DNA of 62,820 nt, filler included, from Chrysochromulina tobinii (GCA_001275005.1; 7 parts of 7 records of this genome joined end to end with filler, not necessarily neighbours in it), one strand, 5' to 3'. Positions 8,829-62,820 are shown, counted from the whole stretch's first letter. Numbers and translations are program-made. The notes: generated from the sequence alone by a model not told the origin.

Positions 8829-8893
8829 ACAAGTCAAGTCAAGTCAAGTTCAAGTTCAAGTTGATCTTTTGAAGTCAAGTCAAGTCAAGTCAA
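8829..8893. repeat. (CAAGT)n microsatellite upstream of UTP13
   Basis: Runs of aagtcaagtcaagtcaagttcaag. Confidence 0.85.
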
Positions 8894-11336: not shown

Positions 11337-11612
11337 GAGATGCTGCTGTTTAGCTGCTGTTCAACACGACGCCGGCGGAAAGGTGCTCGCGCGAACGCAA
11401 TTTTGCCGTATGCCGTAGAATTTTTTCTATAGTCGCTAAGTATCGTAAAGCGATGTACACTCCAGCGTCTCCGCGGGAGATCCGGGCTCACCGCGTTTAC
11501 CGCTGTACGTCAACGACTTTCATCCGCATTCGGAATCGGCGTGAAGCAAAAGCCATAGGCGGAGCAGCGGCGCTCGAGGCACGTTTCGATGCTCACGCCG
11601 CAGTCGACATTC
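11337..11612 (+). repeat. Direct repeat copy 2, overlapping the last codons and downstream flank of the EDEM-like gene
   Basis: Aligns to 8938-9213 with small indels. Confidence 0.9.
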
Positions 11613-14600
11613 GACGCGCACGCGCTGTTCGCGCGCTTGTCGGGGCGGTGGCACGAGGCGCCGTGATGGGCACCGAGGCTGCTCACCTCTTGCCGCTGTG
11701 AGAAGATGGTGTGGAAGGGTTGCCAGCGCCCATCGGGCGTCGTCTCGGCGGCCTCGAGCTTCAGGATGCCGTCCCCATGGGCCCTCACGTTGATCTGCCA
11801 CGAGAGCTGGGGTGGGCCGCGCAGGTTCGTACCGATGCTACCGGCAGCTACCGGCATGCTCGTCATGCTCGTCATGCGCAACCCGCCGGGCTCGGACTGA
11901 GCGGGCTGGAGCACATCGAGGGTGATGGAGCGCAGGGACGGTGGGAGCTGCGCGAGGGCGGTGCTCGCATTCGGTAGCTCGTACGCGGACAGCGCCGCGT
12001 GGAGGAGCAGCTCGGGCGGCACGAGCTTCTGCGGGGTTTCGTCAGCTCCTTGGGCGAGCTCCTCTGACGAACCTTGGGTCGCGGGTATGCAGCAGTGGTG
12101 GTCGATGCACCCGCTGTGCCCCTGGGCGCACTCGTGCAGCATCATGTCGAAGCCGTGGCGGCAGCATGCCCCTTCCGGCCCGCAAAAGTGGCATGGGCCC
12201 GCCTTCTCCTCACACGGCCACCAGCAGTGCACGTGCAGGTTCTGGACGGGCGCTGTGGCCGCCAACGTTTGTGAGTCGTCACTCGTCTGTGTGCGCGCGG
12301 GCGGAGGCTCGCGTGGCCCGATCGGCACAGGCGACGAGGACGGCGGGCTGCCTGACAGGCTGCCGTCCGCAGCGGAGCGGACCCTATCCTTGTGAGTGTC
12401 GTACACCTGGTCGAGGCGCTCGCGCAACGCAGCGACCGCCGCATGGGGCAGTGTGAACAGTGAGGGCACCGGGTTCGTCAAGCCCTCGTCGTAGGCGGGC
12501 GTGGGCACGCACAAGCCGCGCGAGTGGCGCGCACGGGGCCATGAGGGCGGCCACCAACTCGAGTCATCCATGGGGGAGGATGACGAACCCGACGCGCCGT
12601 GTCGGGCATCGGATGGGGACCTTTGTCGACGCCTTTCCTTGGCAGCGGCCTCTGCGGCGGTGGGCGCGTCGGCGGAGGCAGGGGGCGGTCCGAAGGCGGG
12701 CGGCGGTTCCCCCGGCCCACCTGCCTTATTGGGACCACAAGGGAGGCCCTCAGGGATAGCGACGCGCGTGAAGCCGAGCGCACTCAACGCACCCAGCGCC
12801 TGGAGCAGATCACAGGGAGGTGCTGACGGGTCGGGTAGCATCACCGCCCACGCGGACGCGATCGACGTGCGTGCTGGCACGGCGGCCGGTCCGTTCTCGG
12901 CGGCGGCGGCGCCCTCGGCGGCGGCGGCGCCCTCGGCCACGAAGGCGGTCGGCCTCTCGGGCACTGGCCAGAGCCGCTGCAGCTCTCTCTCGACGTCCAA
13001 GGCTGAGCCGCATTGCTGCACGAGCACCGCCTTGCGCGGGATCCCATCCGCCGCCTCCATTGACGAAACGGACGGGATCCCATCCGCGAGCGCCTCCACC
13101 AGCGCCTCCTCCTCCTCCTCCTCGGCCGATCGTTTCGAGGAGCGCTTGCTGGCCCTCTCCTTCTTACGTCCGCGCGAGCGCCCCGTGCCCGACACGGCGC
13201 TCCCGGCGCGTCCACTCAAGCCCCGCGTGCCGAGATCAACCGAGATATCAGCCGAGATATCAGCCGAGATTGGCCGTCGCGAGGGAACAGGGTTCGCGGA
13301 CAGCGTGAGCGGCGGACCGTTCGTGTGCGGTAGCGCAAGGCTCAAGAGGTGCGTCGCTCCGCGCCACCTGTGGGGAAGCAGAGTGGGCGTCGTCGTGAGC
13401 ACTCGCATGCTCGGAGGCTCAAGAGGTGCGTCGCACCGCGCCACCTGACGTGGCCGCCCGATCGGCGGCTCCACTCGAAGTCAAGTCAAGGCAAGGCAAG
13501 TCGAATCAAGTCACGCCAAGTCAAGTCACCTGACGTGGCCGCCCGATCGGCGGCTCCACTCGAACTGCAGCCCGCATGTCGCGTTTCGAACGGCGAGCGC
13601 GATCACAACCGACTCGGCCACCTGCTGGCCCGTCGGTTTGGTGCTCGCGCCGGCGCTCGGAGGGTCGCTCTCGGGCAAGGCGACTGTCCACACCTGTGGG
13701 GAAGGGACCCGGGACGCCGTGGTGAGCACTTGCATGCCTGCTGCCCGCATCCTCGCAAGGCGACTGTCCACACCTCCGCGGAGAGCATTCACATTCACAT
13801 TCACATTCACATTCACTGTCCACACCTCCGCGGAGAGCGCATCCAACTGCTCGGCGGCCGTGGCACGCACACGTACACCGCGCGGGCCTGCAGAGGCGGG
13901 AGATCAGGGCGGGAGATCAGTGTGGATGTGTGAGTGTGTCATGCCATCCGAGGTATCATTGCTCATCAGTGCTCAAGGCGGGAGATCAGGGCGGGAGATC
14001 AGTGTGGATGTCATCCGAGCTGCAGCAGTGCCCACCTGCAAAGGCGGAGATCGAGCCGGAGATCTGGGCGGGAGATCAGTGTGGATGTCATCCGAGGCAT
14101 CATCAGCAGTGCTCACCTGCAAAGGCGGAGATCGAGCCGAGCGTCGCATGGCTCGGCTCTGCCGCGAGCATGATCATCAACTCTTGGGCGGCCTTTGCAG
14201 CGATGGCCTGCTGACGCTGCGACTCCTGCTGCTGCTCCTGCTGCTGCTCCTGCTGCTCCTGCTGCTGCTCCTGCTGCTGCTGCTGCTGCTCCTGCGGCGG
14301 CGGCGGCGGTGGTTGGCACTGCTGCAGCTTCTGCTTCCGCGTCTGCTCCTGATGCCGCTGTCGGCGCGACGACGGCGGCGGAGGCTCGCGAGGATGCGAC
14401 TGTGAATGTGAAGACGGCAGCTGTAAGGCGTGGCACACGAGGTGGGCTCCGGGCGGCTCGAGGCCCGCCGCCGCCGCCTCGGCTGCCGCGGCACGCTCAC
14501 GACGGCGCTGCAGCAGGAGGCTCGTGGCGACCGTCGCGCGAGATTGTAGCTCGCTCCTCTCGAAGCAGTCCGAGTAGCTCAGCCCCGCAGATCTGATGAT

Positions 14601-17251
14601 CTGACGAAGCCGGCTGACCGGCAGCTCGACGATCGGCAAGCCATGAGGCTCATGTGAGGGCAGCCTCGCGCTGGCCGACGCACCGCCCGACACGGCGCTA
14701 TGGCCGCCCGACACGGCGCCAGCACCGCCCGACACGGCGCCCTGACGCGAGCGGACGGGCGGCGATGGCGAGAGCTGTTTGTGCCGGCGGCGATGGTACC
14801 GATCGGCTTCGGCGCCGTGTCGGGCGACGGCCTCGGCCTCACCAGGCGCACTGGCGATCTCGAAGGATCTCGGCATCGAGATCCAATCGAGATTCAACAG
14901 GCCTTGTAACAAGCGCGTGGCCGTTGGCGGAGGAGGCGGCGGAGGAGGCGGAGGCGGCGGCTCGGCGGCCGGTGGCACCAAGCGCTCGCGCGAGGCTCGC
15001 AACTCCTCCTGCGCCGCCGTCAACTCGACGGCGTCGTCGTCGTCGTCGTCGGCGGCGGCGGCATCATCGTCGTCGGCGGCGTCGTCGGTGGCGTCGTCGG
15101 CGGCGTCGGCGGCGTCGTTGGCGGCGGCGCCATCCACGGAGGTACCGAGATCGGCACCGTGATGGTCACCTACTTCCGCCGCCGGTGTGGAAAGCGCGGG
15201 CGCCGTGATGGGCGGCTGCTTCGGAAACGCCGTGCTGATCGGGATGATATGGCCCTCGGTGGAGAAGACGTAGCCGGATGCATGCGTGTTGGGGAAGGCG
15301 TCGTCATCAAAGAGCAGGTAGAGATACTTGAGTGTCTCCGCTAGGAAAAAGGAGGGGGTGTGATCTTCGAGCGTCATGTCGAGCACCGACTTGACCGCGG
15401 CGAAGCCCGAGGGCGTACGCGCGATCTGGTTGAGCGAGATCACCATCTCGCGCCCCATCTCGAGGTACCGGTCGCTACCGGTCGCCCGGTACAGCGCGTA
15501 GGTCGATTCGGCCAGTTCGGGGCGCAGGGGATAGTACGCCATTGAGGAGTGCACGGCGGCACGGGCCACGTCATATCGTTCAGGCAGCACGCGGAATCGA
15601 GACCAGAGGCTGTGCGATGGCCACGCACACCAGTCAATGGACATCAGAGGCCATCAGAGGCACTCCGTGGTCATCAGTGGCACGCTGTGGCACTCCGCGG
15701 CACTCCGCGGCCATCGCACCTGTGGAACGCTTCCTGTGTCTGCGCGGCCGCGGCCACGTCGCCAGCCAGCACTTGCAATGCGGGCCAAAACGCCTGCAAC
15801 GAGTCGAAGGAGGCCACCTCGGCTTTGCCCGCGTACATGTTGGCCTCGCCGTACCAGGGTCCTATTTGCAAGTGAGCGAGGGCTGCGCTGTACGACGCGT
15901 TCCAAATTTGGAATAACTCGGGCGTCCCGAAGACGAGGTAGCTCTTGAGCGCATACCTGCGTGGCAATCAGAGGCCATCAGAGGCCATCAGAGGTCATCA
16001 GAGGTCATAAGAGGTCATCAGCGCTCATCAGCGCTCATCAGAGATCATCAGAGATCATCAGATGGTCGCTCTTGAGCGCGTACTCGTAGAACGAGTCGAT
16101 GCCCGCGCCGATGCCCGCCATCGGGTTGCGCCAAGCCCCACTCACGACGTCGAGTGTGTTGCCGAGTAGGTTGCGTGGAGAGCGCTTGGACCAAAGCAGC
16201 CGCAGCGCGCAGAGCGCGGCGTCCTCGAAGCGAGAGTCGAGCGTCAGCCGCGAGAGTGTACCTGCATGGCGGCCAGTGGTGGTCAGTGGCAATCAGTGGC
16301 GATCTGTGGCGATCAGGCACCATGAATGGAAATCAGTGGCAATCAGTGGCGGCCAGTGGTGATCAGTGGCAAACAGTGGCGATCTGTGGCGATCAGGCAC
16401 CATGAATGGAAATCAGTGGCAATCAGTGGCGGCCAGTGGTGATCAGTGGCAAACAGTGGCGATCAGCGGCGATCAGGCACCATGAATGGCAATCAGTGGC
16501 AATCAGTAGCAATCAGTGGCGGCAAGTGGCAATCAGTGGCAATCAGTGGCAATCAGTGGCAATCAGTGGCAATCAGTGGCAATCAGTGGCAATCAGTGGC
16601 GAGGAGCGCACCGAACTCGAGGAGGAGCGTGCCGATGCCTGCCGTGCACTGCTCGCGCTTCGCATTGTGGTGTGGCACGCCGCCGCGCAGGTGCACAAAG
16701 GCGCGCGGCAGCTGCGAGCAGCCGGCGTCAAAGGCGGAGAGCAGACGCTCGCCGAGATCAGCCGCGAGGCGAAGCAGCTCGCCGCGGTAGCCGCGCATCG
16801 TCAGGTGCCTCGCGCCCTCAATGTGGCCGCTCGCGAGCAGGTGTGCAGAGAGCAGCCCGCCGAGGACACGGATGTTGGTCTCGAAGAGCGAGACCTCCAC
16901 ATCCAGGTCGAAGGACACATGCTCGCTCACCCACCGCACGCCACGCTCGAACTCGCTCACGTTCCCGGCGATCGCAAGCGTGTCGAGCGAATCGATGAGA
17001 GTGAGCGCCACCCCATGGTAGCCTTTTCGTGTCGGCGTGGCGGCGCCGAGCTCAACGAGCGAGTCGGTGTGCGTCTGGCTGAGCGGCCGAAGCTCGTCGT
17101 GCGGAAACGCGTACCGCATGTAGCCATCGTACGTGTGGTAGATCATCTCGCGCACTGTCTCGCGGAGAGCGTGCCTCTCCTCGAGCGGCATGCCACCGCA
17201 GCAGCAGCAGCTGGCGGCGACGACGGCGGCGCGCATACGTCGTGTACGCAT
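11510..17251 (-). CDS. EDEM-like GH47 alpha-1,2-mannosidase with a long C-terminal extension. Predicted exons 17251-16612, 16261-16084, 15956-15720, 15609-14117, 13887-13826, 13693-13530, 13367-11510
   Basis: GH47 motifs YMRYAFPHDELRPLS, LIDSLDTL, FETNIRVLGGLLSAH, GIGAGIDSFYEY, YPLRPELAESTY, SFFLAETLKYLYLLF, FSTEGH. Six GT-AG introns keep the frame; exon sum is 4632 nt, divisible by 3. Confidence 0.85.
16262..16611 (-). repeat. Intron filled with (CTGATTGCCA)n-type minisatellite
   Basis: Plus strand shows aatcagtggc arrays with a higher-order unit; GT at 16611, AG at 16262. Confidence 0.85.
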
Positions 17252-17558
17252 GTTGGGTTCCCGTGCCCCGAAGAAGCGAGCATCGTTGTTTCATGTTTGC
17301 GGCGCCACGTCGAAGTCGACGTCAGACTGCTCAACACAACGCACTGATCCGTACCTGTACACGTGCTCGTGACCACACAGAGAAAACTTCGGACATGCGC
17401 GAAAACACAGCGGGTACGCGCCAAATTTGTGACGCCCCCTCCGCACGGCAAACAACGCAAACAACTCAGATTCAACTCTCAACTGTACTCACGGGTCACG
17501 CCGCAAGAAAGCAGCAGATCTCCACACAAGCACACATGCGGGGCGCGGGCGTGCACTC

Positions 17559-23519: not shown

Positions 23520-23797
23520 CTGGACGGCGGACGACGGAATGGCGGGTTGCCGGCGGCGAGGGCCTCTGCCCTCTCGCGATTCGCGTTCGGTTTCCTACGT
23601 ACATGTAGGATACGTGTTCTGAGCCCCGAGCTCCAAGAGTGTATGGATCGAAACGAAGGGGGCGCTGCCACGAGCACACGCGGGCGGGATGAGACCANNN
23701 NNNNNNNNNNNNNNNNNNNNNNNNNNNNNNNNNNNNNNNNNTTAATTAATTAANNNNNNNNNNNNNNNNNNNNNNNNNNNNNNNNNNNNNNNNNNNN

Positions 23798-24767
23798 TGC
23801 GACGGCGGCGGCGAGCGCACTGCTCGACACGGCGCTCGATGAAGGCGAGGTGCTCGAGACGGCGCCGGCGCATGAGGCTACGGCAGAGGCGCCCGCGGCG
23901 CAGGCAGAGAAGGCGGCGCAGGCGGCGCAGGCAGAGGCGGAGGAGGCGCGTGCAGAAGCGGTGGCGCGCGCTGCGGCTGCTTCGGCGTCGGTGGTCGGCG
24001 CTGTCGCTCCAGCGCCCATGGACGTCGAGAGCGACGCGCCCGCGACAGCGCCCAATGGCGGCGCGCCCGCGACAGCGCCCAATGGCGGCGCGCCCGCGAC
24101 AGCGCCCATGGACGTCGAGAGCGACGCGCCCGCAACAGCGCCCAATGGCGGCGCGCCCGCGACAGCGCCCATTGGCGGCGCGCCCGCGACAGCGCCCATT
24201 GGCAGCGCGGCCCCCATCAAGCTGGGAGCCTTGCCAGTCAAGCTCGGAGGTCTCAAGCCGGTAGCAAAGTTAGGGGCGGCCAAGAAACTCGGCGGCGGCG
24301 GCGTGGTGGGCGGCGGCGTGGCGCCGGCGGCGTTCGTCGTCGATGAGGGTCCCAAGATGGGCCCACTTGTCGCGATCGACTACACCGAGGAGGAGAAGGC
24401 GGCAGTCACGCCTGCAGTGGCCCCCCCGACGGCAGAGGAGCTCAAGCAGCTGGTCAACTCCATACCGACGCAGCGCGACGCCCTGTACGCCGCTCCGGTC
24501 GATTGGGATCTTGTCGGGCGCTCGGGGCTCATCGAGACCAAGCTGCGCGCCTTCATCAATAAGAAGATGGCCGAGTACCTGGGGGAAGAGGAGCCGAGCC
24601 TGGTGGCCCACGTGCTGGACAAGCTCGCCCAGCGGACGCCCGCTGCGGCCATCGAGCAGGGCCTTGCCAAGGTGCTCGACGAGGAGGCGGGCGTCTTCGT
24701 CGTCAAGCTCTGGCGCATGCTCCTCTTCGAGCTGCGCCTGCGCGAATTCGAGGCGGGCAGAAAGTAG
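23798..24767 (+). CDS. RBM25-like PWI-domain splicing factor, 3' part (5' end in gap)
   Basis: IPTQRDALYAAPVDW...INKKMAEYLGEEEPSLV...VLDEEAGVFVVKLWRMLLFE; preceded by APATAPNGG/APMDVESD tandem repeats. Confidence 0.85.
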
Positions 24768-30342: not shown

Positions 30343-33101
30343 ATGGACTTCGTCATGGACGATGAGATGGCGCAGCGCTATAACAAGCTGATGATTTGGA
30401 ATGCGCGGCAGCGCGCTGTCGTTGCTCGCTTTGCTGAGCGCTCGTCTGCCGAGGGCATGTTGGCCGCCACCATCTGCAGCCCCGTGCACACCTGGTCACG
30501 TCCTCGGCAGCCAAGCACAGCTCCAGCTGTGCTCCAGAGTGGCGGTTTGGACGCAGACACGCGGACTTGGGACGAGGGTGACGACGAGGAGGAGCGGAGG
30601 GCGCGGTCAGACCTGGTGGCCGAGATGGATGCGGCGGCGGCGGAGGTGGCGGCGGAGGCGGCGGCGGCGGCGGAGGCGGAGGCAGCGGCTTCGAAGTTTG
30701 CAGCCGATGCTGCATCATCGATGGAGCCAGCAGCGCAGATGGGCGACGGCGAAGGTCGAGCTGCAAATGAGGACACACGGACGTGGGACGAGGGTGACGA
30801 CGAGGAGGAGCGGAGGGAACGGAACGAGCTGGTGGCCGAGATGGAGAAGGAGGGGTCCTGGCCACCAGCCTCCATCTCCATCTCGGTATATGCAGAGGCG
30901 CCATCGGCGGCAGCGGCAGCGGTGGCAGCGGTGGCGGCGTTGGTCTCCAAACTCGAGGCAGCGAAGGCGGAGGCGGAGGCGAGAGCAGCCAAGCTATTGG
31001 TAACGGCGGCTCCGAAGGCAGGCGAGGATGGCGGTGGCGGTGCGAGCGGGGAGACGCGGACGTGGGACGAAGGTGACGACGAGGAGGAGCAGAGGGAACG
31101 GGCCAGGCTGGTGGAGGAAGAGGGTAGCAAGCACGAGAGCGAGGAGAGCGAGAGCGACGATGGCTTCGTCAACGCGCCGGCGCCGCCGCCTACGACGAAA
31201 TCGGTCGTCCACGGCCTGGCCATTCCCGGCCTGTCGCTCGGCAAGCTGAAGCAGATGGTCGTTCCACCTGACGAGGCCGAGTCCAAGGCAGACAAGCTAC
31301 GCCGCTTTGCGCCCATCTGTTCGAAGATTCTCGAGGGGCTCTACCTAGGCTCGGATGTCGTTGCACGCTCCCGCAGCACGCTGCACGCACACGGCATCAC
31401 TCACGTGCTCAACTGCGCCGGCGTCGCGTGCCCCGAGTACCACGCGCCCGACAGCACGCTCACCTACCGTACGCTCTTCTTATACGATTCCCCACATCAG
31501 GAGCTCGGGGCAGTGCTCTACGAGTCTCTTGCCTTCGTGGCGGACGCGCTCGCGTCGGGCGGGAAGGTCTTCGTGCACTGCCAGCAGGGCGTCTCACGCT
31601 CGGCGTCGCTCGTGATCGCGTACGTCATGTGGACACGTGGCCTCAACTTCCTTGCATGCAAGTGCTCACCACGGCGCCATCACGTCCCCACAGGTATGTC
31701 ATGTGGACACGTGGCCTCAACTTCCTTGACGCCCACACGCTCGTCAAGGAGGCGCGTGGCGTGGCCGAACCGAATGCGGGCTTCGTGTGTGCGTTGGTCG
31801 CCTTTGGGAAACGGCTGCGTGCACGTCCACTCACCGCGCCGTCGCCCACGGCCGCCAGCGCGGATGGTGGGAGGACGCCACGTAGTGGCGGCAGCGGCGG
31901 CGGCGGCAGCAGTAGCGGCGGCGGCGGCGGCGGCAGCAGTAGCGGCGGCGGCAGCAGCGGCGGCGGCAGCAGCGGCAGCCAAGAGGTGCCGGAGATGCGA
32001 GTGTACCGGATGGTGCCTCACTATAACGGCCCCGCCCCGCGAGAGGTGGCGCTGTCGTGGGCACGTGGGCACGTGGGCGATGCGACAGCCGAGCTCGGTG
32101 AACATCTCGACCCTCGCTCCGCCTTTGTGGTCCATCTGCCGCCGAGGAGCGCCGCCGCTGTGCCAGGCGCTCACAGTCTGATGCCCAACGGCAGCAGAGC
32201 TGCAGCAACCGCAGGCGCTCACATCGCGTCAGCCGCCGAGGCGGAGGCGGAGGCCGAGCCGAACGCCACGGCCGAGGATCCTCTGGCAGCCTATCGTGGC
32301 CAGTGCGTCGTGCTGTACACCTCGTACGCGAGCAACATGCTCTTCGAGGTCGCGTGGCGCAAGCTTGAGACCCAATTCCAGGGCATGGGGCTCAAGTATA
32401 CGGCTATCGACGGCGCGGCGCCGGAAGCGAAGGCGGTGCGATCCCTACTTTGGGCGATCAGCAACGACCGAAGCTACCCGCAGGTATTTGCATGCCGTCA
32501 TGGGGGGGCGTGCGAGTTCCTCGGCGGCGCAAGTGAGATGCAAGCACTCTTTGACTCGGGCGAGCACGCGCGCCGTCTCGCCGAGTACCTCGAGCTCCCA
32601 TCGGAGATCCCACAAGGGGGCGGGCCCATCCGCGAGGTGGGCGGCGTTGGCAGCGGCTTGGGCTCCTCGAATGCAGGCGCATGCTTCGTGTGGGTGGGCG
32701 CGCAGTCGTGCGACGCGTACCGGCAGGCGGCGCTGCGTTGGGCGGCGCTTCTCGAGCGTTTTGAGGGAGCACCGCCTGCCCATGAGGAGGCGCAGGGGCG
32801 CGAGAGTGAACCCTTCTGGCGTGCCGTGAGCTGCGGCCATGCCGTGCCAGGCCATGCCTTTGTTGCGGTGCGCAAGGCGACGCCGCTCGCCGCGTACGAC
32901 GCCGAGTACGGCCCCGGCATCGCGACCTTCCTCCCGAAGCCTGTGCCGGTGCTCTCTCTCTCTCCAGCCGAGGGTGCGCCGTCGCAGGCCGAGGGGACTC
33001 TGGTGCGCGATGCGGCCACGGGCGACATCGTCGGTCCTCAGCAGCGCTGGCATGCGGCGCTAAACGCCCTCTTGTTTGTGCACCACCTCTCCTCGTACTG
33101 A
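30343..33101 (+). CDS. Dual-specificity (MAP kinase) phosphatase, plant MKP1-like, with gelsolin-like and glutaredoxin-like domains; intron 31620-31693
   Basis: LYLGS, HGITHVLNC, catalytic VHCQQGVSRS. Splicing restores IAYVMW...VKEARGVAEPNAGF. Gelsolin-like LDPRSAFVVH / CFVWVG...QGRESEPFW. Confidence 0.88.
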
Positions 33102-41726: not shown

Positions 41727-41991
41727 ATTGTCCCACTGCTCAGGAGGGCCGCGCGCGCACGCGCGCCCGGACGGACGAAGAAGCTCGACCGCAAATCTCG
41801 CAAACTTGCTCGCATCCGTTAACGAAACAAACCAACACGGCGCCAGATCGTGCGGCGCGCGCAACAGCGCCGACGAGTGGGGCAAGCGGGCNNNNNNNNN
41901 NNNNNNNNNNNNNNNNNNNNNNNNNNNNNNNNNNNTTAATTAATTAANNNNNNNNNNNNNNNNNNNNNNNNNNNNNNNNNNNNNNNNNNNN

Positions 41992-45528: not shown

Positions 45529-46314
45529 GCCCAGCCCCGGCGGGAACGGGAGCCGCGCGCGAGCAGGGAGGAGACCGCCGCGAACCGTCAGGTCGGTGTC
45601 GTTGACCAGCGGTGGGGGGGGCTCCGTGTCCCCGTTGCCCCATCTGAGGGACGGCCCGGGGANNNNNNNNNNNNNNNNNNNNNNNNNNNNNNNNNNNNNN
45701 NNNNNNTTAATTAATTAANNNNNNNNNNNNNNNNNNNNNNNNNNNNNNNNNNNNNNNNNNNNAGATGCTCACTGCTGCCCCGACCGAGGCCCCGCGGCAG
45801 AAACAGAGCCTCGGTCGATTCGAGCATGGGTTATCCAGGAAGCAGGGACCGAGGCGAAAGCGCTGCCTTGAGCCGAGGTCGAGTGTTTTGAGTGCGGAAA
45901 AGAAAGCACAGGAAAACGACTGGGTATCCACCCCTATCTCCACGCGCCGCGCCCGGCCATCTAGTCTCCACGCGCCGCGCGCCCCGCCATCGTCGCCTCC
46001 CCGCCTGGTGCGTGTGCGTAACCCACAGAGGTTGCTGCCTCGCACCGATGCCGGCGCGGCTGCGGCGTGCGCCGCAGGAGCTGCGCCCGCCGCCGACCCG
46101 CCCGGCTGCGTGGGAGGCGTCCGTAGGTGGCGTCCGCGGTTTCCGCTGGCCGGGTCCGGGTGCAAGTTTTTGTATAGAGAAAGAAAAGAAAAGCGGGTCC
46201 CCAGCCCTCGCCCCCTGGGCCCAATATTCGTCGGAATTCCGAGTGCACTAACCCTTTCTTCGCCGGCGAGTGGGAACGGAAATCAAGGCGGGCAGTACTC
46301 CGATCATATCCGTG

Positions 46315-54973: not shown

Positions 54974-55065
<92 letters not shown>

Positions 55066-56440: not shown

Positions 56441-56540
56441 NNNNNNNNNNNNNNNNNNNNNNNNNNNNNNNNNNNNNNNNNNNNTTAATTAATTAANNNN
56501 NNNNNNNNNNNNNNNNNNNNNNNNNNNNNNNNNNNNNNNN

Positions 56541-59500
56541 GGCCCTTGGCGAGGCTCTCGAGCCGGTGGAGCATCACGAGCGCCTCCGACACGAGCTCGA
56601 ATCTCTGCGGATCTCCCTGGGCCGAGCTCGGCTTCTTGAGCGCCGTCGTGAGCGGTTTGAGCTGGAGAAGGAGGCGTGCGACGAGCTTGTCGAATGTATG
56701 TTGCACCTTCTCTTGCAGAGCGGGCGCCCCGGGCTGGGCCAGGAGCGCGGACCATGCTTCGCCGCAAGCCTCGAGCGTCGCCCGGTCGGTGTGCCTGATC
56801 AACGAGACATTCACATCAGAATGTAATCAGCCGTCATCATTCGTCATCATTCGTCATCAGGCGTCATCATGCGTCATCAGGCGTCATCAGGTGGTCATCC
56901 GCTGGTTATCTGAGGGCCATCAGAGGCCATCAGAGGCCATCAGCGTACTTGGTCGTCACGTCTTCGAGCTCCGAGAGCATCTTCTCGAACGCCTTGTCCT
57001 TGAGGGTCGCCAGGGCGGACGCGAGGCGCATCTGCTGCACGAGCGCGAGCACGGCGCGCAATGGCCCTGCGTGCGTACCTGTGGGGAGAGGGGGGTGGGC
57101 GCCGTAGTGAGCACTTGCATGCAGAGCACGGCGCGCAACAGCCCTGCAAGCGCACCGAACCGTAGGAGCAGTTGCGCCATCGCCATCGCCAGCTGAGTTG
57201 AGAGAGCCGTCGACGTCTCTTCCACATCCGCGATCGCCTTGCGCTGCTTGCGCTTGCGACTCTTGCGCCCCCGCCCGCCCCCCACGTCGTCCGCGTCGCC
57301 GTCGTCCTCCTCCTCGTCCTCGTCCTCGTCATGCTCGTCGAGCTCCGCGGCAGCGGCGTCGAAGCGGCCGTTCATGTCGATCGCGGCGGCATGCATCAGC
57401 CGAAGGATCACGGGCAGCGTCGCCTCGATGGAGGGGTCGAGATCTTCGTCGTCGGCGGTAAGCACCTGTGGGGAGGGGCGCACTCAGACGGCACATTCTC
57501 AGGGGTCATCAGCTGGCAATCAGGCGTCATCAGCTGGCCATCAGAGGCAGGTGATCGCACCTCAACGTACGCCGCCCAGTTGGTGAGCGCGGGCTCGATG
57601 GGCGCCATCGCGCGCACCAACTGCCCACAGCGCACACCCAGCTCTGCCTCCTCCTTCGCCTCCTTCTTCTCGTCCGCCAGCGCCGGCTCAGCCTCTTCCG
57701 GGACCCAAAAATGGTGCGCCTGCCGATCGGCGAGTAAGAGCGACGCGAGCTGCACTAATGAGGGAGGCAATCAGCGTGCAATCAGAGACCATCAGAGCTA
57801 CCTGCCGATCGGCGAGTAGGAGCGATGCGAGCTGCACGAGAGGGGACTTGGCGAGCCGGGCGACGGAGCCGGCGGCGAGGTGCTGCCGCTGCGCTTTACT
57901 CGGCGAGGTCGGGCCGCCGCCGCCGCCACCACCACCGCCGCCGCCGCCCTCATCGTCGTCCGCTATCGCGCCGCCACCACCTGCCGCTGCCGCGCTGCCG
58001 CTTGCACCGGCCTCGGCGCGGCCCTCGGTTGCCGTGGGCGAGTCGTCCTTGAGGTGGAGTGGGGAGGCGGGAGCGCTGTGGTGAGCACTTGCATGCAAGG
58101 CAGAGCCTCCGCAGGCAATCAACGTACCTTGAGGTGGAGCTGGATGAGGGGTCCGAGGCCCGTCAAGAGCTTCGGCTGTACGTCACGCTGGCACATAAGA
58201 TGCAGCGCCGTGTCGGTCTCGTCACTCGCGTAGTAATACGCTTTCCATAGCGTGCACAGCACCTGCCGAGGGATGGTCATCAGAGGTCATCAGCGGCCAT
58301 CAGCCTCGATCAGCGGCCATCAACGACCATCCACGGCCATCAGCGGCACTCTGGGAGAACGCACCTCCTCCAGCCCGAGTACCTCAACGGCCGGCGCCGC
58401 CGCGAGCATCATTGACAGCAGACGCGCCGCGTACAGCCTGGTCAGCTCCAGACGCAGAGTCGGGTGGATCAACTTAACGGTCGAGCCGAGCCAGCGCACG
58501 GGACGGCGCTCGGCGCCCTTGGGTGCGCCGCGTCCCCGCGCCTCAGCGGCGCTCGGCGCCTCATCGGGCACGGGGGGGAGGGGTGCGCCATTGGCGCCAT
58601 TGGCGTGGCTGGCCGCCGTCATGAGCACCTTGAGCCCCTCTGTAATCAGCCAATGGAGCCTTTCGAGCCATCTCGGCGCCTGATGAAGGAGGTCATCAGG
58701 CGCCATCAGCCGCCATCAGCCGCAACTCACAGACCGTTGGAGGTCGTCAGGCGCAACCAGGCGCACTCATCAGGCGCAATCAAGGCGCACTCCACTCACC
58801 GGCCGTGGTCCGCTCTCGGACCGGCAGAGCTCCGCAATCCTGTCCGATCCCAACGCCGGCGAGTCTGCAACGCTCGGCCCCCGTCCAGCCACGACTATGT
58901 CGAGGTCGCCCGCAGCGTCGGCGTCGGCGTGGGCGCCGTCGAGCGGAGGCGCCAAACGTCTCTCGAGCTCGGGCGCCGTGCTAAGCAGCAGCGCGGCGTA
59001 CTTGTGGAGCGGGATGGCCATCGCACTAAGCATCTCGAGCGCGAGCTGCGCGAGAGAGACTGACGAACCTTCGAGGAGTGCTTGGAGGCTCGGCAGCAGC
59101 TCGCGGCGCAGCCCCACGAGCTCGCGAACCTGATGAAGGAGGCAATCAAGAGGTCATCAGAGTTCATCAGAAGCCATCAGAGGTCATCAGCAGCTCGCGC
59201 ACAGCTGCCTCGTCGTCACCCAGCGCGCCAGCCACCTCCTCTGCCTCCTCCGCCTCCTCCGCCTCATCGTCCTCGTCGTCCTCGTCCCCCGCGGAGCGCC
59301 GTTGCGAGCACGAACTAGCGTTATGCTCCGTCTTCATCTTCTTGGCCGCCGCCTTGCGCGACTCTCCCTTCACGCCGCCACCGTTCGCATCCTTAGTGAC
59401 GACCAACGCCTCGACGCGCAGCACGAGCTGTGCCAACTGCAGCCGCAACAGCGAGCACACGCAGCCAGCCAGCCGGCCCGCGAGCGCCGTCGTGGGCGCA

Positions 59501-59932: not shown

Positions 59933-60032
59933 NNNNNNNNNNNNNNNNNNNNNNNNNNNNNNNNNNNNNNNNNNNNTTAATTAATTAANNNNNNNNNNNN
60001 NNNNNNNNNNNNNNNNNNNNNNNNNNNNNNNN

Positions 60033-61350
60033 ATGCCTCGGCGAAAGGCTTCGCTCAGCTCAACGGCACTGGGGCCGGCGCCGAGCCGTCGGATGGGACC
60101 GGCGGCGGCAGCGGCGGCGGGCATGGCGGCACCGGCGGCGCCGGCCACGGCGGAGACGCCGGGGGCATCGCGTACGGTGTGATCGAGCAGCCGGTCAGCG
60201 CCGGCAGTGGCGGCGGGCGCGGAAGGTATCCGAGCTTCTACTTGACCTACGTACCAACCGTCGGCACGTGGGCGGCTGGGCGCGCAGCGTGCCAGTCTCT
60301 CGGCGGCGATCTCGCAAGCATCCACAGCGCCGCGCAGAATGCCGCTGTTCGGGCTATCCTCCCTCAATCCACCGCCGCCTGGATCGGTGCAAATGACCTG
60401 GCAAGCGAGGGCACCTGGAGGTGGTCCGACGGCACTCCGTGGGACTACTCCAACTGGATCCCTGGTGAGCCAAACAACGCGGGCGATGAGGATTGTGGAG
60501 CTACATATGAGCCAGGCCCCTGGAACGATGCACCTTGTTCATGGGGTTTTGGCGCCGTGTGCCGGATGTCTGGTGGTGCTGCTGTCCACTTCCGCGACGG
60601 CGGCGCAGGCGGAGGCACCGTGCGCATCGACGTGAGCGGCCCGCTGACCATGGCGCCGTCGGCTTCGATTCGTGCCAACGGCGCCCAGGGCGCCGACTCG
60701 AACGTCAACTGCTGCAGTGCCTGCACTTGCGGCGACGACGTGTACAACGGAGGCGGCGGTGCCGCGGCGGGCTCGATATGGATCAGCGCCGAGAGCATGC
60801 TCGGCAACGGCTCTCTGCAGGCGACGGGCGGGGCCGGAGGCGCAGCTGGCGTACGTAGCGGCTCGTGGCAGCACGCTGGAGGCGGCGGGGCTGGCGGACG
60901 TATCGCCGTGCACTGCGCGTCGCAGCTCGCGAGCGGCATTTCGATGAGCGCCGTCGGCGGCCAGAGGGGGTCGAACGACGCGGGCAACGAGGGTGTGGGT
61001 GCGCCTGGGACCATCTTCACGTCTGTGGGTGGCGTTCGGACGCTTGTGGTCGACAACGCGGCGACGAGCTCGTCGCTGGTCGGCGGCTACGTGCGACTGC
61101 CTGCGAGCGGCAACGGCAGCCTTGTCCTGCACACACTCAGGCTCGTGAACAGCAAGGTCGATGTGCACTACAGCGTGAACGCGACGCACGTGATCGGCTT
61201 GTCGTCTGATGTGACCACGCGCTTGCTCGAGGCCACGTCGCTGTCGACAAGCTCGTGCACATGGCTGGCGCACTCGCGCGTCACAACGGTGACGATGCAG
61301 CTCCTGAGTACAGTGTGGACGAGCGCGGAGCCGATCGGCGCGTCGAGCAT
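60033..61350 (+). CDS. Gly-rich repeat (probably extracellular) protein fragment with an inserted C-type lectin domain (~60230-60565)
   Basis: GGGSGGGHGG, GSGGG, GGAGGGTVRI, IRANG repeat motifs; CLECT ACQSLGGDLASIHS..WIG..WRWSDG..EPNN..EDC..WNDAPC. Confidence 0.8.
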
Positions 61351-61452
61351 NNNNNNNNNNNNNNNNNNNNNNNNNNNNNNNNNNNNNNNNNNNNTTAATT
61401 AATTAANNNNNNNNNNNNNNNNNNNNNNNNNNNNNNNNNNNNNNNNNNNNCG

Positions 61453-62820
61453 GCGACGAGCTCGTCGCTGGTCGGCGGCTACGTGCGACTGCCTGCGAGC
61501 GGCGACGGCAGCCTTGCAGTGCACACGCTCAAGATCGTGAACAGCAAGGTTGATTTGTACTACAGCGTGAATGTCACCTCGCTGTCGACAACGTCGTGCA
61601 CATTGCTGGCGCAGTCGCGCGTCTCAGCAGTCACAATGCAGCTCCTGAATACACTTTGGACGAGCGCGGCGCCGATCGCCGCGTCGGACATGCTCAAGAT
61701 CAACGGATCGACCACGCTGACGACGAGCGCATCTGTCGGTCGCATCGAGGCCGGCACGTTGTTGGTCGAGACCGGCGCCATCCTGACGACGTCGTCGATA
61801 TCTGTGGGTGTGCTCGAGGTGGTGGCTGGCACGATGCGTGTGCAGGGCACCGGCGCCATTCGGGCAGGTGCGTTGCACGTCAATGCGTCTAGCTGGTCGG
61901 TCGAGGCGTCTGAGTCCAACGTGCAGACGTACAGCCTCCTCAGGTACGACGTCCAGAGCATGCAGGTGGCCGGAGTGATGAGATGCACGAACCAGTGGTG
62001 CTCGATCATGGGCCGCTTCTCGCAGATGAACATGAGCGGCAGCAGCTCGTCCTTGGAGGCGACGCACATCTTCTTGGAAGGCAGCGGCCTGAGCATGCAG
62101 GGCAGCAGCAGGCTCGATGCCTCGGCGCGCGGCTTTGCTCAGCTGAGTGGTACTGGAAGCGGCGCCGAGCCGTCGGATGGTACTGGCGGCGGCAGCGGCG
62201 GCGGGCATGGCGGCACCGGCGGCGCCGGCCACGGTGGAAACGCCGGGGGCATCGCGTACGGCGTGATCGAGCTGCCGGTCAGCGCCGGCAGTGGCGGCGG
62301 GCGCGCAAGGTATGCCAACGGCCACTTCCGCGACGGTGGCGCAGGCGGAGGCACTGTGCGCATCGTCTTGAGCGGCACGCTGACTGTTTCGTCATCGGCT
62401 TCGATTCGGGTCAACGGCGCCCAGGGCGCCGACTCAGGCTTGAGCTGCCAGTCCAGTTGCGTTGACAACGCGTACAACGGAGGTGGCGGTGGCGCCGGTG
62501 GTTCCGTGGCCGTTCGTTCTTCACGAGTTGTAGGCGGTGGTCAGATTCAGGCCACGGGCGGGGCCGGAGGCGCAGCGGGCGCACGTAGTGGCGCGTTGCA
62601 GAACGCTGGAGGCGGCGGGGCTGGCGGACGTATCGGCATGATCCTCCTTGAGTCTCCTTCCGTATCCGTGTTCTTCTCAGGTGGAGCTGGAGGCTCCGGC
62701 GCTGGCGGCTCCGGCAATGGCGGGGCGGGGCTGGATGGCACGTATTATTACTACGTGCCGCCTCCGCCTCCATCGCCTCCACCCCCGTCGCCTCCTCCTA
62801 GTCCGCCGCCTCCGTCGCCC
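61453..62820 (+). CDS. Further repeat unit of the same Gly-rich protein, ending in an SPPP-rich linker; runs off the window
   Basis: Open frame from the gap to the window end; 62118-62640 closely matches 60033-60905 minus the lectin; 61451-61690 matches 61059-61350. Confidence 0.75.

What the first reader, a model, noticed from the sequence alone, without database searches (positions are those of the whole stretch)
13338..13564. Intron containing a copy of its own spliced junction: stacked units at an AG|GT point
Seen: intron 13368-13529 (minus) is GT + (GACTT)n, then a perfect 35-nt copy of the upstream exon end (13445-13479 = 13530-13564), then a 30-nt copy of the downstream exon start (13415-13444 vs 13338-13367, one mismatch), then the shared cassette. 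It parses as two complete GT-AG units of 85 and 77 nt with a zero-length exon between them. Inference: two insertions hit the same AG|GT site from either side and created a potential recursive splice site.
Basis: partly seen in the sequence, partly recalled or inferred. Interest (0 to 1): 0.8.

Follow-up and report, generated by a model that had tools for sequence, protein, structure and literature searches.

The report
Algal introns built from copied halves
In a haptophyte-like alga this 162-base intron is real and is spliced out whole, and it is one of many introns made of a long copy of their own exon plus half of another intron, likely left by successive repair-type insertions, which would show existing introns seeding new ones; two-step (recursive) splicing here is untested and probably incidental.

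Summary
Observation confirmed: intron 13529-13368 (minus strand, GH47 mannosidase gene, haptophyte-like) = 85-nt unit + 77-nt unit; RNA contigs of 3 of 6 runs bridge the full 162-nt removal. It is not a one-off. The 77-nt unit belongs to a large family: 101 of 155 cassette acceptors carry an upstream 12-50-nt copy of their downstream exon start (control 4 of 1531), 93 starting at GT/GC. One filled/empty pair (L116 vs L012) shows an 81-nt gain whose cassette is identical to the next intron 468 nt away. The next intron upstream in the window has the same two-unit build; 9 such doublets occur among 95 cassette introns. Five of the 9 lack AG at the internal junction, and in 5 of 5 informative cases the repeat unit copied the already-intronic donor. 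So the doublet is likely a cassette intron later hit by a repeat insertion whose duplication spans the donor; AG|GT is incidental. Recursive splicing is possible here but unshown, and contigs cannot test it. The interesting thing is the intron-birth process: half-introns copied into long variable duplications, unlike the short fixed-TSD introners I found described.

The parts
13368..13529 (-). 162-nt GT-AG intron, phase 2, removed whole in mRNA
   Evidence: RNA joints/pieces in X13, X17, X14; frame stays open 673 codons only if both units go
13530..13564 (-). End of upstream exon (A), 35 nt that are duplicated inside the intron
13480..13529 (-). Used donor plus degenerate (GACTT)n filler; branch-like YTRAY adenines at about 13481, 13486, 13506, 13521
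   Evidence: branch use is inferred, not shown
13445..13479 (-). Perfect copy of the upstream exon end (A'), ending CAG; two internal GAG
13415..13444 (-). Copy of the downstream exon start (B', 29 of 30), beginning GT: likely the original donor of the cassette intron. The base at 13435 tells B' from B
13368..13414 (-). Cassette: 4-nt junction, conserved ~23-nt core with CTCAC (A at about 13396, likely branch point), C-rich tract, CAG acceptor
13338..13367 (-). Start of downstream exon (B)
13694..13825 (-). Next intron upstream, 132 nt, same two-unit build: 52 nt (11-nt copy of donor region, (GAATGT)n, 13-nt exon-end copy, internal GAG|GT) + 80 nt (19-nt exon-start copy + cassette); removed whole
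   Evidence: RNA pieces in X16, X17, X18
13888..14116 (-). 229-nt intron with an 81-nt duplication that spans its donor (23-nt exon-end copy); removed whole
   Evidence: joint 13886-14116 in X13, X16, X17
14385..14412 (+). Exon stretch that matches, inverted, both fillers of the 132-nt intron; candidate local template
   Evidence: I14, I18, I20; the two 11-mers occur 5 and 18 times in 1.3 Mb
11510..17251 (-). Host gene: GH47 (EDEM/MNS-like) alpha-mannosidase with a long low-complexity C-terminal part; six introns seen in RNA
   Evidence: Pfam PF01532; RNA pieces; best named hits are haptophytes
31620..31693 (+). Single cassette unit, 74 nt, 34-nt copy of downstream sequence starting at GT (predicted intron)
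   Evidence: no RNA laid here
57079..57155 (-). Single, more diverged cassette unit with ~32-nt copy (predicted intron; read by eye)
58048..58127 (-). Mirror-type unit, 80 nt: family 5' half + core + 12-nt copy of upstream exon end supplying AG (predicted intron)

Best explanation
The intron is a 77-nt cassette unit plus an 85-nt repeat unit that are spliced out together, likely left by two successive staggered-break repair events, each of which would duplicate 30-38 bases of target and copy in a piece of existing intron-type sequence. Step 1 (inferred from the family, shown at L116/L012): a break with long offset ends starting at G|GT in the exon was filled with the branch point, pyrimidine tract and CAG of another intron, primed by 2-5 nt of microhomology; the first copy of the duplication became the donor, so the mRNA is restored exactly. 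Step 2 (inferred from 5 of 5 informative doublets): (GACTT)n was inserted at or up to 3 nt inside that donor with a 35-38-nt duplication reaching back into the exon; the upstream donor copy is now used and the old donor with its exon-end copy is stranded inside. The internal AG|GT exists because about half of these introns sit at AG|GT anyway. Selection would keep only events whose ends fall on GT or AG. I take a DNA template and a polymerase-theta-like, template-switching repair polymerase as most likely; the enzyme is not shown.
For: Family census: 101 of 155 cassette acceptors have a 12-50-nt (median 27) upstream copy vs 4 of 1531 swapped controls; 93 of 101 start GT/GC; 82 of 101 are preceded by G. 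Mirror type: 14 of 26 family 5' halves are followed by a copy of the upstream exon end, all 14 ending in AG, control 9 of 735. Filled vs empty: L116 has 81 nt (33-34-nt perfect duplication + 47-nt cassette) absent from L012/L053, flanks 96-97% alike; the insert with its junctions (53 nt) is identical to the intron 468 nt downstream in L012/L053, the only identical pair among 101 units. L066: one unit carries 7 nt from the end of the exon-derived duplication and junction of a unit 2.5 kb away in the neighbouring ORF, with 5-nt microhomology. Best match is local for 8 of 47 units vs 1.4 expected; cores cluster (chi2 125, df 40). A second acceptor family does the same (59 of 126, unfiltered, no control), so no single element is needed. 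(GACTT)n arrays with 9-24-nt duplications occur away from donors (L006, L022, L070, by eye). The neighbour intron's fillers match inverted exon sequence 600 nt away. Order and AG tests. Staggered breaks with 3' overhangs giving templated insertions: PMC7407515 passages.
Against: No enzyme or break was observed; an RNA template fits the sense-only orientation of fillers equally well (7 of 7 ten-mer fillers in doublets are sense). Only one filled/empty pair, and loss by recombination between the repeats is not excluded; whether L116's own contig holds the neighbouring template could not be read. Local-similarity excess is modest (p=0.022) and loci from different strains inflate it. At this locus the order is uninformative, the junction is ambiguous by microhomology, and 4-5 of 91 cassette units do sit directly behind an older intron's acceptor (L035, L038, L051 twice, perhaps L056, by eye), so the reverse order happens. 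The doublet rate (11 of 95) is not above a crude control (124 of 1381 random AGGT sites, tandem arrays included). 54 of 155 acceptors and 89 of 244 cores were not explained by this pattern. The sample was seeded with an exact 19-mer, favouring young copies. Splicing was shown only for the window gene.
Confidence: 0.58

Rival explanations
1. Same two insertions, but made by a reverse transcriptase: target-primed copying of intron or pre-mRNA RNA (non-LTR-like machinery in trans), giving variable long TSDs, 5' truncation at microhomology and repeat-only inserts.
For: Variable 12-50-nt duplications, exact 3' end at CAG and ragged 5' junction (gap 0-58 nt, median 6); sense-only fillers; L116's template lies in the same putative transcript; non-LTR introners are about 5% of classified examples in PMC12130899 (passage).
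Against: Mirror-image units with exact 5' and ragged 3' ends are common; no poly(A) or fixed tail on the cassette; the L066 donor lies in a different ORF; an inverted local filler in the neighbour intron; no RT-like frame found by a motif scan of the 126 loci and no long element attached to cores or GACTT arrays (a weak test on 0.65 Mb).
Confidence: 0.25
2. One reading: the GACTT unit is or was a complete intron, the cassette unit was added at its acceptor, and the 162 nt are normally removed in two steps through a zero-length exon.
For: Internal site is CAG|GTG with YTRAY 37 and 42 nt upstream and only GAG between; 85 and 77 nt are typical unit lengths (median 79); cassette units behind older acceptors exist; X16 has a contig 13154-13461 keeping unit 2 with no cover over 13470-13509, beside a fully spliced end.
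Against: 5 of 9 doublets lack the AG; 5 of 5 informative ones show the opposite order; the neighbour doublet has GAG|GT, 52 nt and no branch consensus yet splices whole; no stand-alone GACTT intron among the arrays listed; the X16 contig ends inside the repeat at depth 4, and unspliced pieces also cover the 229-nt intron in X13 and X18, so pre-mRNA or DNA explains it.
Confidence: 0.17
3. The cassette is an ordinary non-autonomous DNA transposon (introner) and the long repeats are an unusual but element-made TSD.
For: High copy number (about 2900 stored stretches hold the exact 19-mer); one splice site from the element and one from the TSD, as described for introners.
Against: TSDs described there are 3-8 nt and fixed per class; here 12-50 nt. 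No fixed 5' end, 98 distinct core-to-AG sequences among 101, no inverted repeat within the unit, several unrelated fillers use the same geometry.
Confidence: 0.06
4. Assembly artefact or chance repeat.
For: No single listed DNA contig spans the whole intron.
Against: Contig ends fit a real 38-nt repeat; 12 DNA runs hold 93-96% of the words; 7 further doublets of the same build in other contigs; RNA skips exactly 162 nt.
Confidence: 0.02

Closest known systems
Introners / introner-like elements (Micromonas, Aureococcus, Symbiodinium, Polarella, Chrysochromulina sp. MAG family 5); bioRxiv 2022.06.06.494994, bioRxiv 2020.10.14.339549, PMC11282704, PMC12130899
   Same: Many related introns; one splice site carried, the other taken from the duplicated target; exact restoration of the mRNA; presence/absence between strains.
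   Different: Described TSDs are 3-8 nt and fixed per family (4 nt for the Chrysochromulina example); here 12-50 nt, about a third of the intron. No fixed ends or TIRs; both 3'-half and 5'-half versions; donors are particular existing introns, often nearby, and can pass on captured exon sequence.
Intron gain by staggered double-strand-break repair in Daphnia pulex (PMC4202315; review PMC3443670)
   Same: Direct repeat of an exon end at the far end of the new intron; later staggered insertions enlarging a young intron (their 'staggered-then-staggered' class).
   Different: Daphnia repeats are 4-12 bp and most insert sources are unknown; here repeats are 12-50 nt and the source is recognisably another intron's branch point and acceptor (or donor), repeated across many loci.
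Intron gain by tandem genomic duplication of an AGGT-containing exon segment (review PMC3443670)
   Same: Duplicated exon sequence supplies a splice site and lies inside the intron.
   Different: Only one site comes from the duplication; half the targets lack AG before GT; a foreign cassette supplies branch point and the other site.
Recursive splicing / zero-length exons (Drosophila ratchet points, human RS sites; review PMC5126111)
   Same: An internal YAG|GT whose use would regenerate a donor.
   Different: Described for long introns; here 162 nt, no enrichment of AG at analogous junctions, no intermediate shown.

Membership tests
Introner (DNA-transposon type) | Multi-copy family of related introns at unrelated sites | tested here: met
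   263 non-redundant cores in 126 loci plus window; similarity is limited to about 45 nt
Introner (DNA-transposon type) | Short TSD of fixed length | tested here: not met
   12-50 nt, median 27, in 101 units
Introner (DNA-transposon type) | Fixed element ends, often TIRs | tested here: not met
   5' junction varies 0-58 nt before the core; no inverted pair inside 13368-13444; not all introners have TIRs
Introner (DNA-transposon type) | Presence/absence at orthologous sites | tested here: met
   One pair, L116 vs L012/L053; none available for the window locus
Recursive splice site | Internal YAG|GT with an upstream branch point and pyrimidine tract | tested here: inconclusive
   CAG|GTG and YTRAY present, but the 35 nt before the AG are GC-rich exon copy without a pyrimidine tract
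Recursive splice site | Intermediate junction or lariat at the internal site | not testable with these tools
   Only contigs were served; all 31-mers of the intermediate also occur in unspliced RNA because the repeat is 38 nt
Recursive splice site | Site enriched or conserved beyond background | tested here: not met
   AG at 4 of 9 internal junctions vs 51 of 101 baseline
Recursive splice site | Long host intron | tested here: not met
   162 nt
Staggered-break repair intron gain | Exon-terminal direct repeat at the far end of the insert | tested here: met
Staggered-break repair intron gain | Microhomology and templated filler at junctions | tested here: met
   L116 (2 and 3-4 nt), L066 (5 nt), neighbour intron's inverted filler; few cases
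Staggered-break repair intron gain | Dependence on a repair polymerase | not testable with these tools
   no genome held, no genetics
Non-LTR retroposition in trans | Variable TSD with 5' truncation | tested here: met
   but mirror 3'-truncated units also occur
Non-LTR retroposition in trans | Autonomous RT element sharing the 3' end or tail | tested here: inconclusive
   none found in 0.65 Mb; most of the genome unseen
Tandem-duplication intron gain | Both splice sites from a duplicated AGGT, intron made only of duplicated exon | tested here: not met
   47-nt foreign cassette supplies the acceptor; 50 of 101 targets lack AG before the donor

The most novel reading that the evidence does not exclude
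In this haptophyte lineage spliceosomal introns multiply with no transposon of their own: half of an existing, often neighbouring, intron is copied into a long exon duplication, giving a perfect intron whose GT-flanked acceptor is itself a ready template for the next event. This self-seeding, still active process would have built a large share of the genome's introns, and stacking at one site would yield the shortest recursively spliced introns, such as this 85+77-nt one.
Probability: 0.35. Interest if true: 0.88.

Novelty: new variant of a known kind. Interest (0 to 1): 0.7.

Why it matters
Where the sequence of a new intron comes from is a standing question: reviews list intron transposition as lacking in vivo proof and most gained introns as having no known source (PMC3443670, PMC4202315 passages). 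Here donor, recipient, empty site and junction microhomology can be read from the DNA, in a cultivable-looking alga with strain polymorphism, so DNA versus RNA templating becomes testable. Introner searches that ask for similarity over the whole intron would likely miss such introns, because a third of each is locus-specific exon copy (inference). The recursive-splicing angle is secondary.

Tried and rejected
No whole genome is held, so counts come from 126 loci (648 kb, partly redundant) seeded by one exact 19-mer, not from the genome. An untargeted doublet scan was swamped by tandem repeats (176 hits at AG|GY, 68-198 at control tetramers) and was dropped for the targeted scan. The first classification mixed tandem copies into both classes and was replaced. 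Idea that (GACTT)n is the tail of a LINE near L066/L024: rejected, the repeated neighbour is a gene family and no RT motif was found. Rfam: nothing meaningful in 13200-14200. No homologue of the 618-aa downstream exon among longer proteins, so its coding status rests on RNA cover and the open frame. Lack of RNA cover over the GACTT filler in X13, X16, X17 and X18 is not counted as evidence of anything but splicing. Junction fillers of 5 nt or more: 15 of 55 recur elsewhere, only 2 with 5 or more nt of microhomology. Three look-ups of earlier findings returned nothing. Whether L116's contig holds the neighbouring template intron remains open.

Full report
Observation. The minus strand reads exon end A | GT, degenerate (GACTT)n, perfect 35-nt copy A' | GT, 30-nt copy B' with one mismatch, 47-nt cassette, CAG | exon start B. 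Exact repeats are 38 and 33 nt with the shared junction bases. The host gene is a GH47 mannosidase whose best named relatives are the haptophytes Chrysotila carterae (69%) and Diacronema lutheri (58%); the genus is not determined. Removing both units leaves 673 open codons from exon 13693; keeping unit 2 stops at codon 88, keeping unit 1 at codon 55.

Reads. Twelve DNA runs hold 93-96% of the sampled words of 11400-17400 and six RNA runs 63-73%; all are contigs. One DNA run was laid: X1 has contigs 11528-13471 and 13535-13779 without differences, ending at the edges of the 38-nt repeat. All six RNA runs were laid. X13 and X17 give the joint 13364-13527, 162 nt, GT..AG on the minus strand; X14 gives the same pieces; X16 has a 16-nt spliced loose end and also a depth-4 contig 13154-13461 that keeps unit 2 and 17 nt of the repeat, with no cover over 13470-13509; listed pieces of X15 and X18 do not span the site. 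The X16 contig is what a unit-1-only intermediate would look like, but it stops inside the repeat, and unspliced pieces also cover parts of the 229-nt intron in X13 and X18 and unit 2 of the neighbour intron in X13. Because the repeat is longer than 31 nt, contigs cannot separate the intermediate from pre-mRNA or DNA.

The neighbourhood. The next intron upstream (13825-13694, 52+80 nt) has the same build with (GAATGT)n, a 13-nt and a 19-nt copy, an internal GAG|GT and no branch consensus in unit 1; it is removed whole in X16, X17 and X18. The intron before it (14116-13888) holds an 81-nt duplication across its donor. Four of the gene's six RNA-confirmed introns carry a 13-35-nt copy of an exon end.

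The family. The exact 19-nt core is in about 2900 stored metagenome stretches (stretches, not genomes); 126 loci were held, 80 with long flanks. Of 263 non-redundant cores, 244 had enough flank; 155 are followed by a pyrimidine tract and YAG; 138 of those 155 are followed by GT or GC (background 14%). In 101 of 155 the sequence after the AG is repeated upstream of the core (control 4 of 1531); the copy is 12-50 nt, 35 of 101 perfect, starts GT/GC in 93, and the unit is 54-123 nt with no frame bias. The mirror type starts with a constant donor half and ends with a copy of the upstream exon end: 14 of 26, all ending AG, control 9 of 735, including one strain duplicate and two tandem copies. A second acceptor family built on 10-nt repeats shows the same geometry in 59 of 126 cases, unfiltered and without control. 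These are predicted introns; RNA was laid only on the window gene.

Where the halves come from. L116 has an 81-nt unit that L012 and L053 lack, with flanks 96-97% alike and a perfect 33-34-nt duplication. Its cassette plus junctions, 53 nt, is identical to the intron 468 nt downstream in L012/L053 and to nothing else held (L005 at two differences); it is the only identical pair among 101 units. In L066 a unit begins its cassette with 7 nt taken from the end of the exon-derived duplication and junction of a unit 2.5 kb upstream in the adjacent ORF, entered by 5 nt of microhomology. Across 93 units the best match is in the same locus for 8 of 47 with a local partner (1.4 expected), same-strand neighbours are slightly more alike (p=0.022), and cores cluster; strain differences between loci inflate these. 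Both fillers of the window's neighbour intron match an inverted exon stretch 600 nt upstream. This points to copying from particular introns and nearby DNA or RNA by template switching, not to one element with fixed ends.

The doublet. Among 95 cassette units with enough upstream sequence, 11 have an in-register duplication of the exon end further upstream: 2 tandem copies and 9 with a repeat filler, two of them in the window. L022 is a further case with two (GACTT)n units, seen by eye. The internal junction has AG in 4 of 9 (2 of 7 outside the window) against 51 of 101 for all units. The first unit begins with 3-16 nt of the second unit's start, and where intron copy and exon differ it follows the intron copy in 5 of 5 cases; 4 cases, both window ones included, are uninformative. 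So the repeat unit came second and the AG|GT is inherited from the original target. For this locus, A/A' has 0 differences, B/B' 1 and the core 3 against the family consensus, which mildly agrees. Against: the rate of doublets is not above a crude control (124 of 1381 random AGGT sites, tandem arrays included), which says only that donor-spanning duplications are common here; and 4-5 of 91 cassette units sit right behind an older acceptor, so the reverse order, with a once-functional internal acceptor, does occur.

Mechanism. Shown: structure, splicing of 162 nt, family geometry, one filled/empty pair with an identical nearby donor. Inferred: offset breaks with long overhangs, microhomology-primed copying, selection for ends at GT or AG, order of the two events.

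Literature. Seen as passages: PMC12130899, bioRxiv 2022.06.06.494994, PMC3443670, PMC5126111, PMC7407515, PMC11282704, PMC4202315; parts 1-2 of 4 of bioRxiv 2020.10.14.339549. They describe introner TSDs of 3-8 nt, Daphnia repeats of 4-12 bp with later staggered insertions, tandem-duplication gain, and recursive sites in long introns. Nine searches (other papers seen as listings only) turned up no description of long variable exon duplications completed by half of another intron, in haptophytes or elsewhere. The library lacks most subscription papers, and I saw no supplements; the introner family tables for Chrysochromulina MAGs could hold this core.

Verdict. The feature is real. Its recursive-splicing reading is unproven and probably incidental. 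It exposes an apparently undescribed variant of intron gain, active between strains, in which donor and recipient can be matched. Interest 0.7.

Noticed in passing
window 8830-8893 (-); L005 ~731 (+); L024 ~12089 (+); L066 ~8850-8880 (-); L072 (- strand, offset 3456): (GACTT)n arrays lie on the sense strand just upstream of apparent start codons in several genes (by eye); in L066 two arrays form an inverted pair around an AT-rich spacer.
   Followed up: partly
window 13694-13825 vs 14385-14412: Both fillers of the 132-nt intron match adjacent inverted exon sequence 600 nt upstream, as in fold-back templated repair. The intron is also a stop-free multiple of three.
   Followed up: partly
L030:1500-1690 vs L069: A 94-nt cassette unit is present twice in tandem in one assembly and once in another: copy-number change between repeats, or an assembly difference.
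   Followed up: partly
L016 (- offset 2159) and L055 (+1811); L046, L062, L072: Mirror-type introns at unrelated loci share exon-derived tails: L055 carries part of L016's duplicated exon end, and three loci share a tail and a 9-14-nt target end. Introns seem to pass captured exon sequence on.
   Followed up: no
L035, L038 ~9960, L051 ~7400 and ~9000: Cassette units placed directly behind the acceptor of an older 10-mer-repeat intron; better candidates for real zero-length exons than the window locus.
   Followed up: partly
window 57720-57801 (-): Predicted 82-nt intron with 10-mer filler and a 24-nt copy of the upstream exon end supplying the AG.
   Followed up: no
window 11510-13366 (-): 618-codon transcribed last exon of the GH47 gene with no Pfam match and no homologue among longer proteins.
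   Followed up: partly
window 23698-23797, 41892-41991, 45663-45762, 56441-56540, 59933-60032, 61351-61450: Six paired runs of 44 N with 12 bases between; 61101-61512 has a 392-nt-period repeat across one of them, probably scaffold joins.
   Followed up: no
window 23998-24209; 54974-55061: 90/27-nt tandem repeats in a GC-rich stretch and a perfect (TGC)29 run.
   Followed up: no
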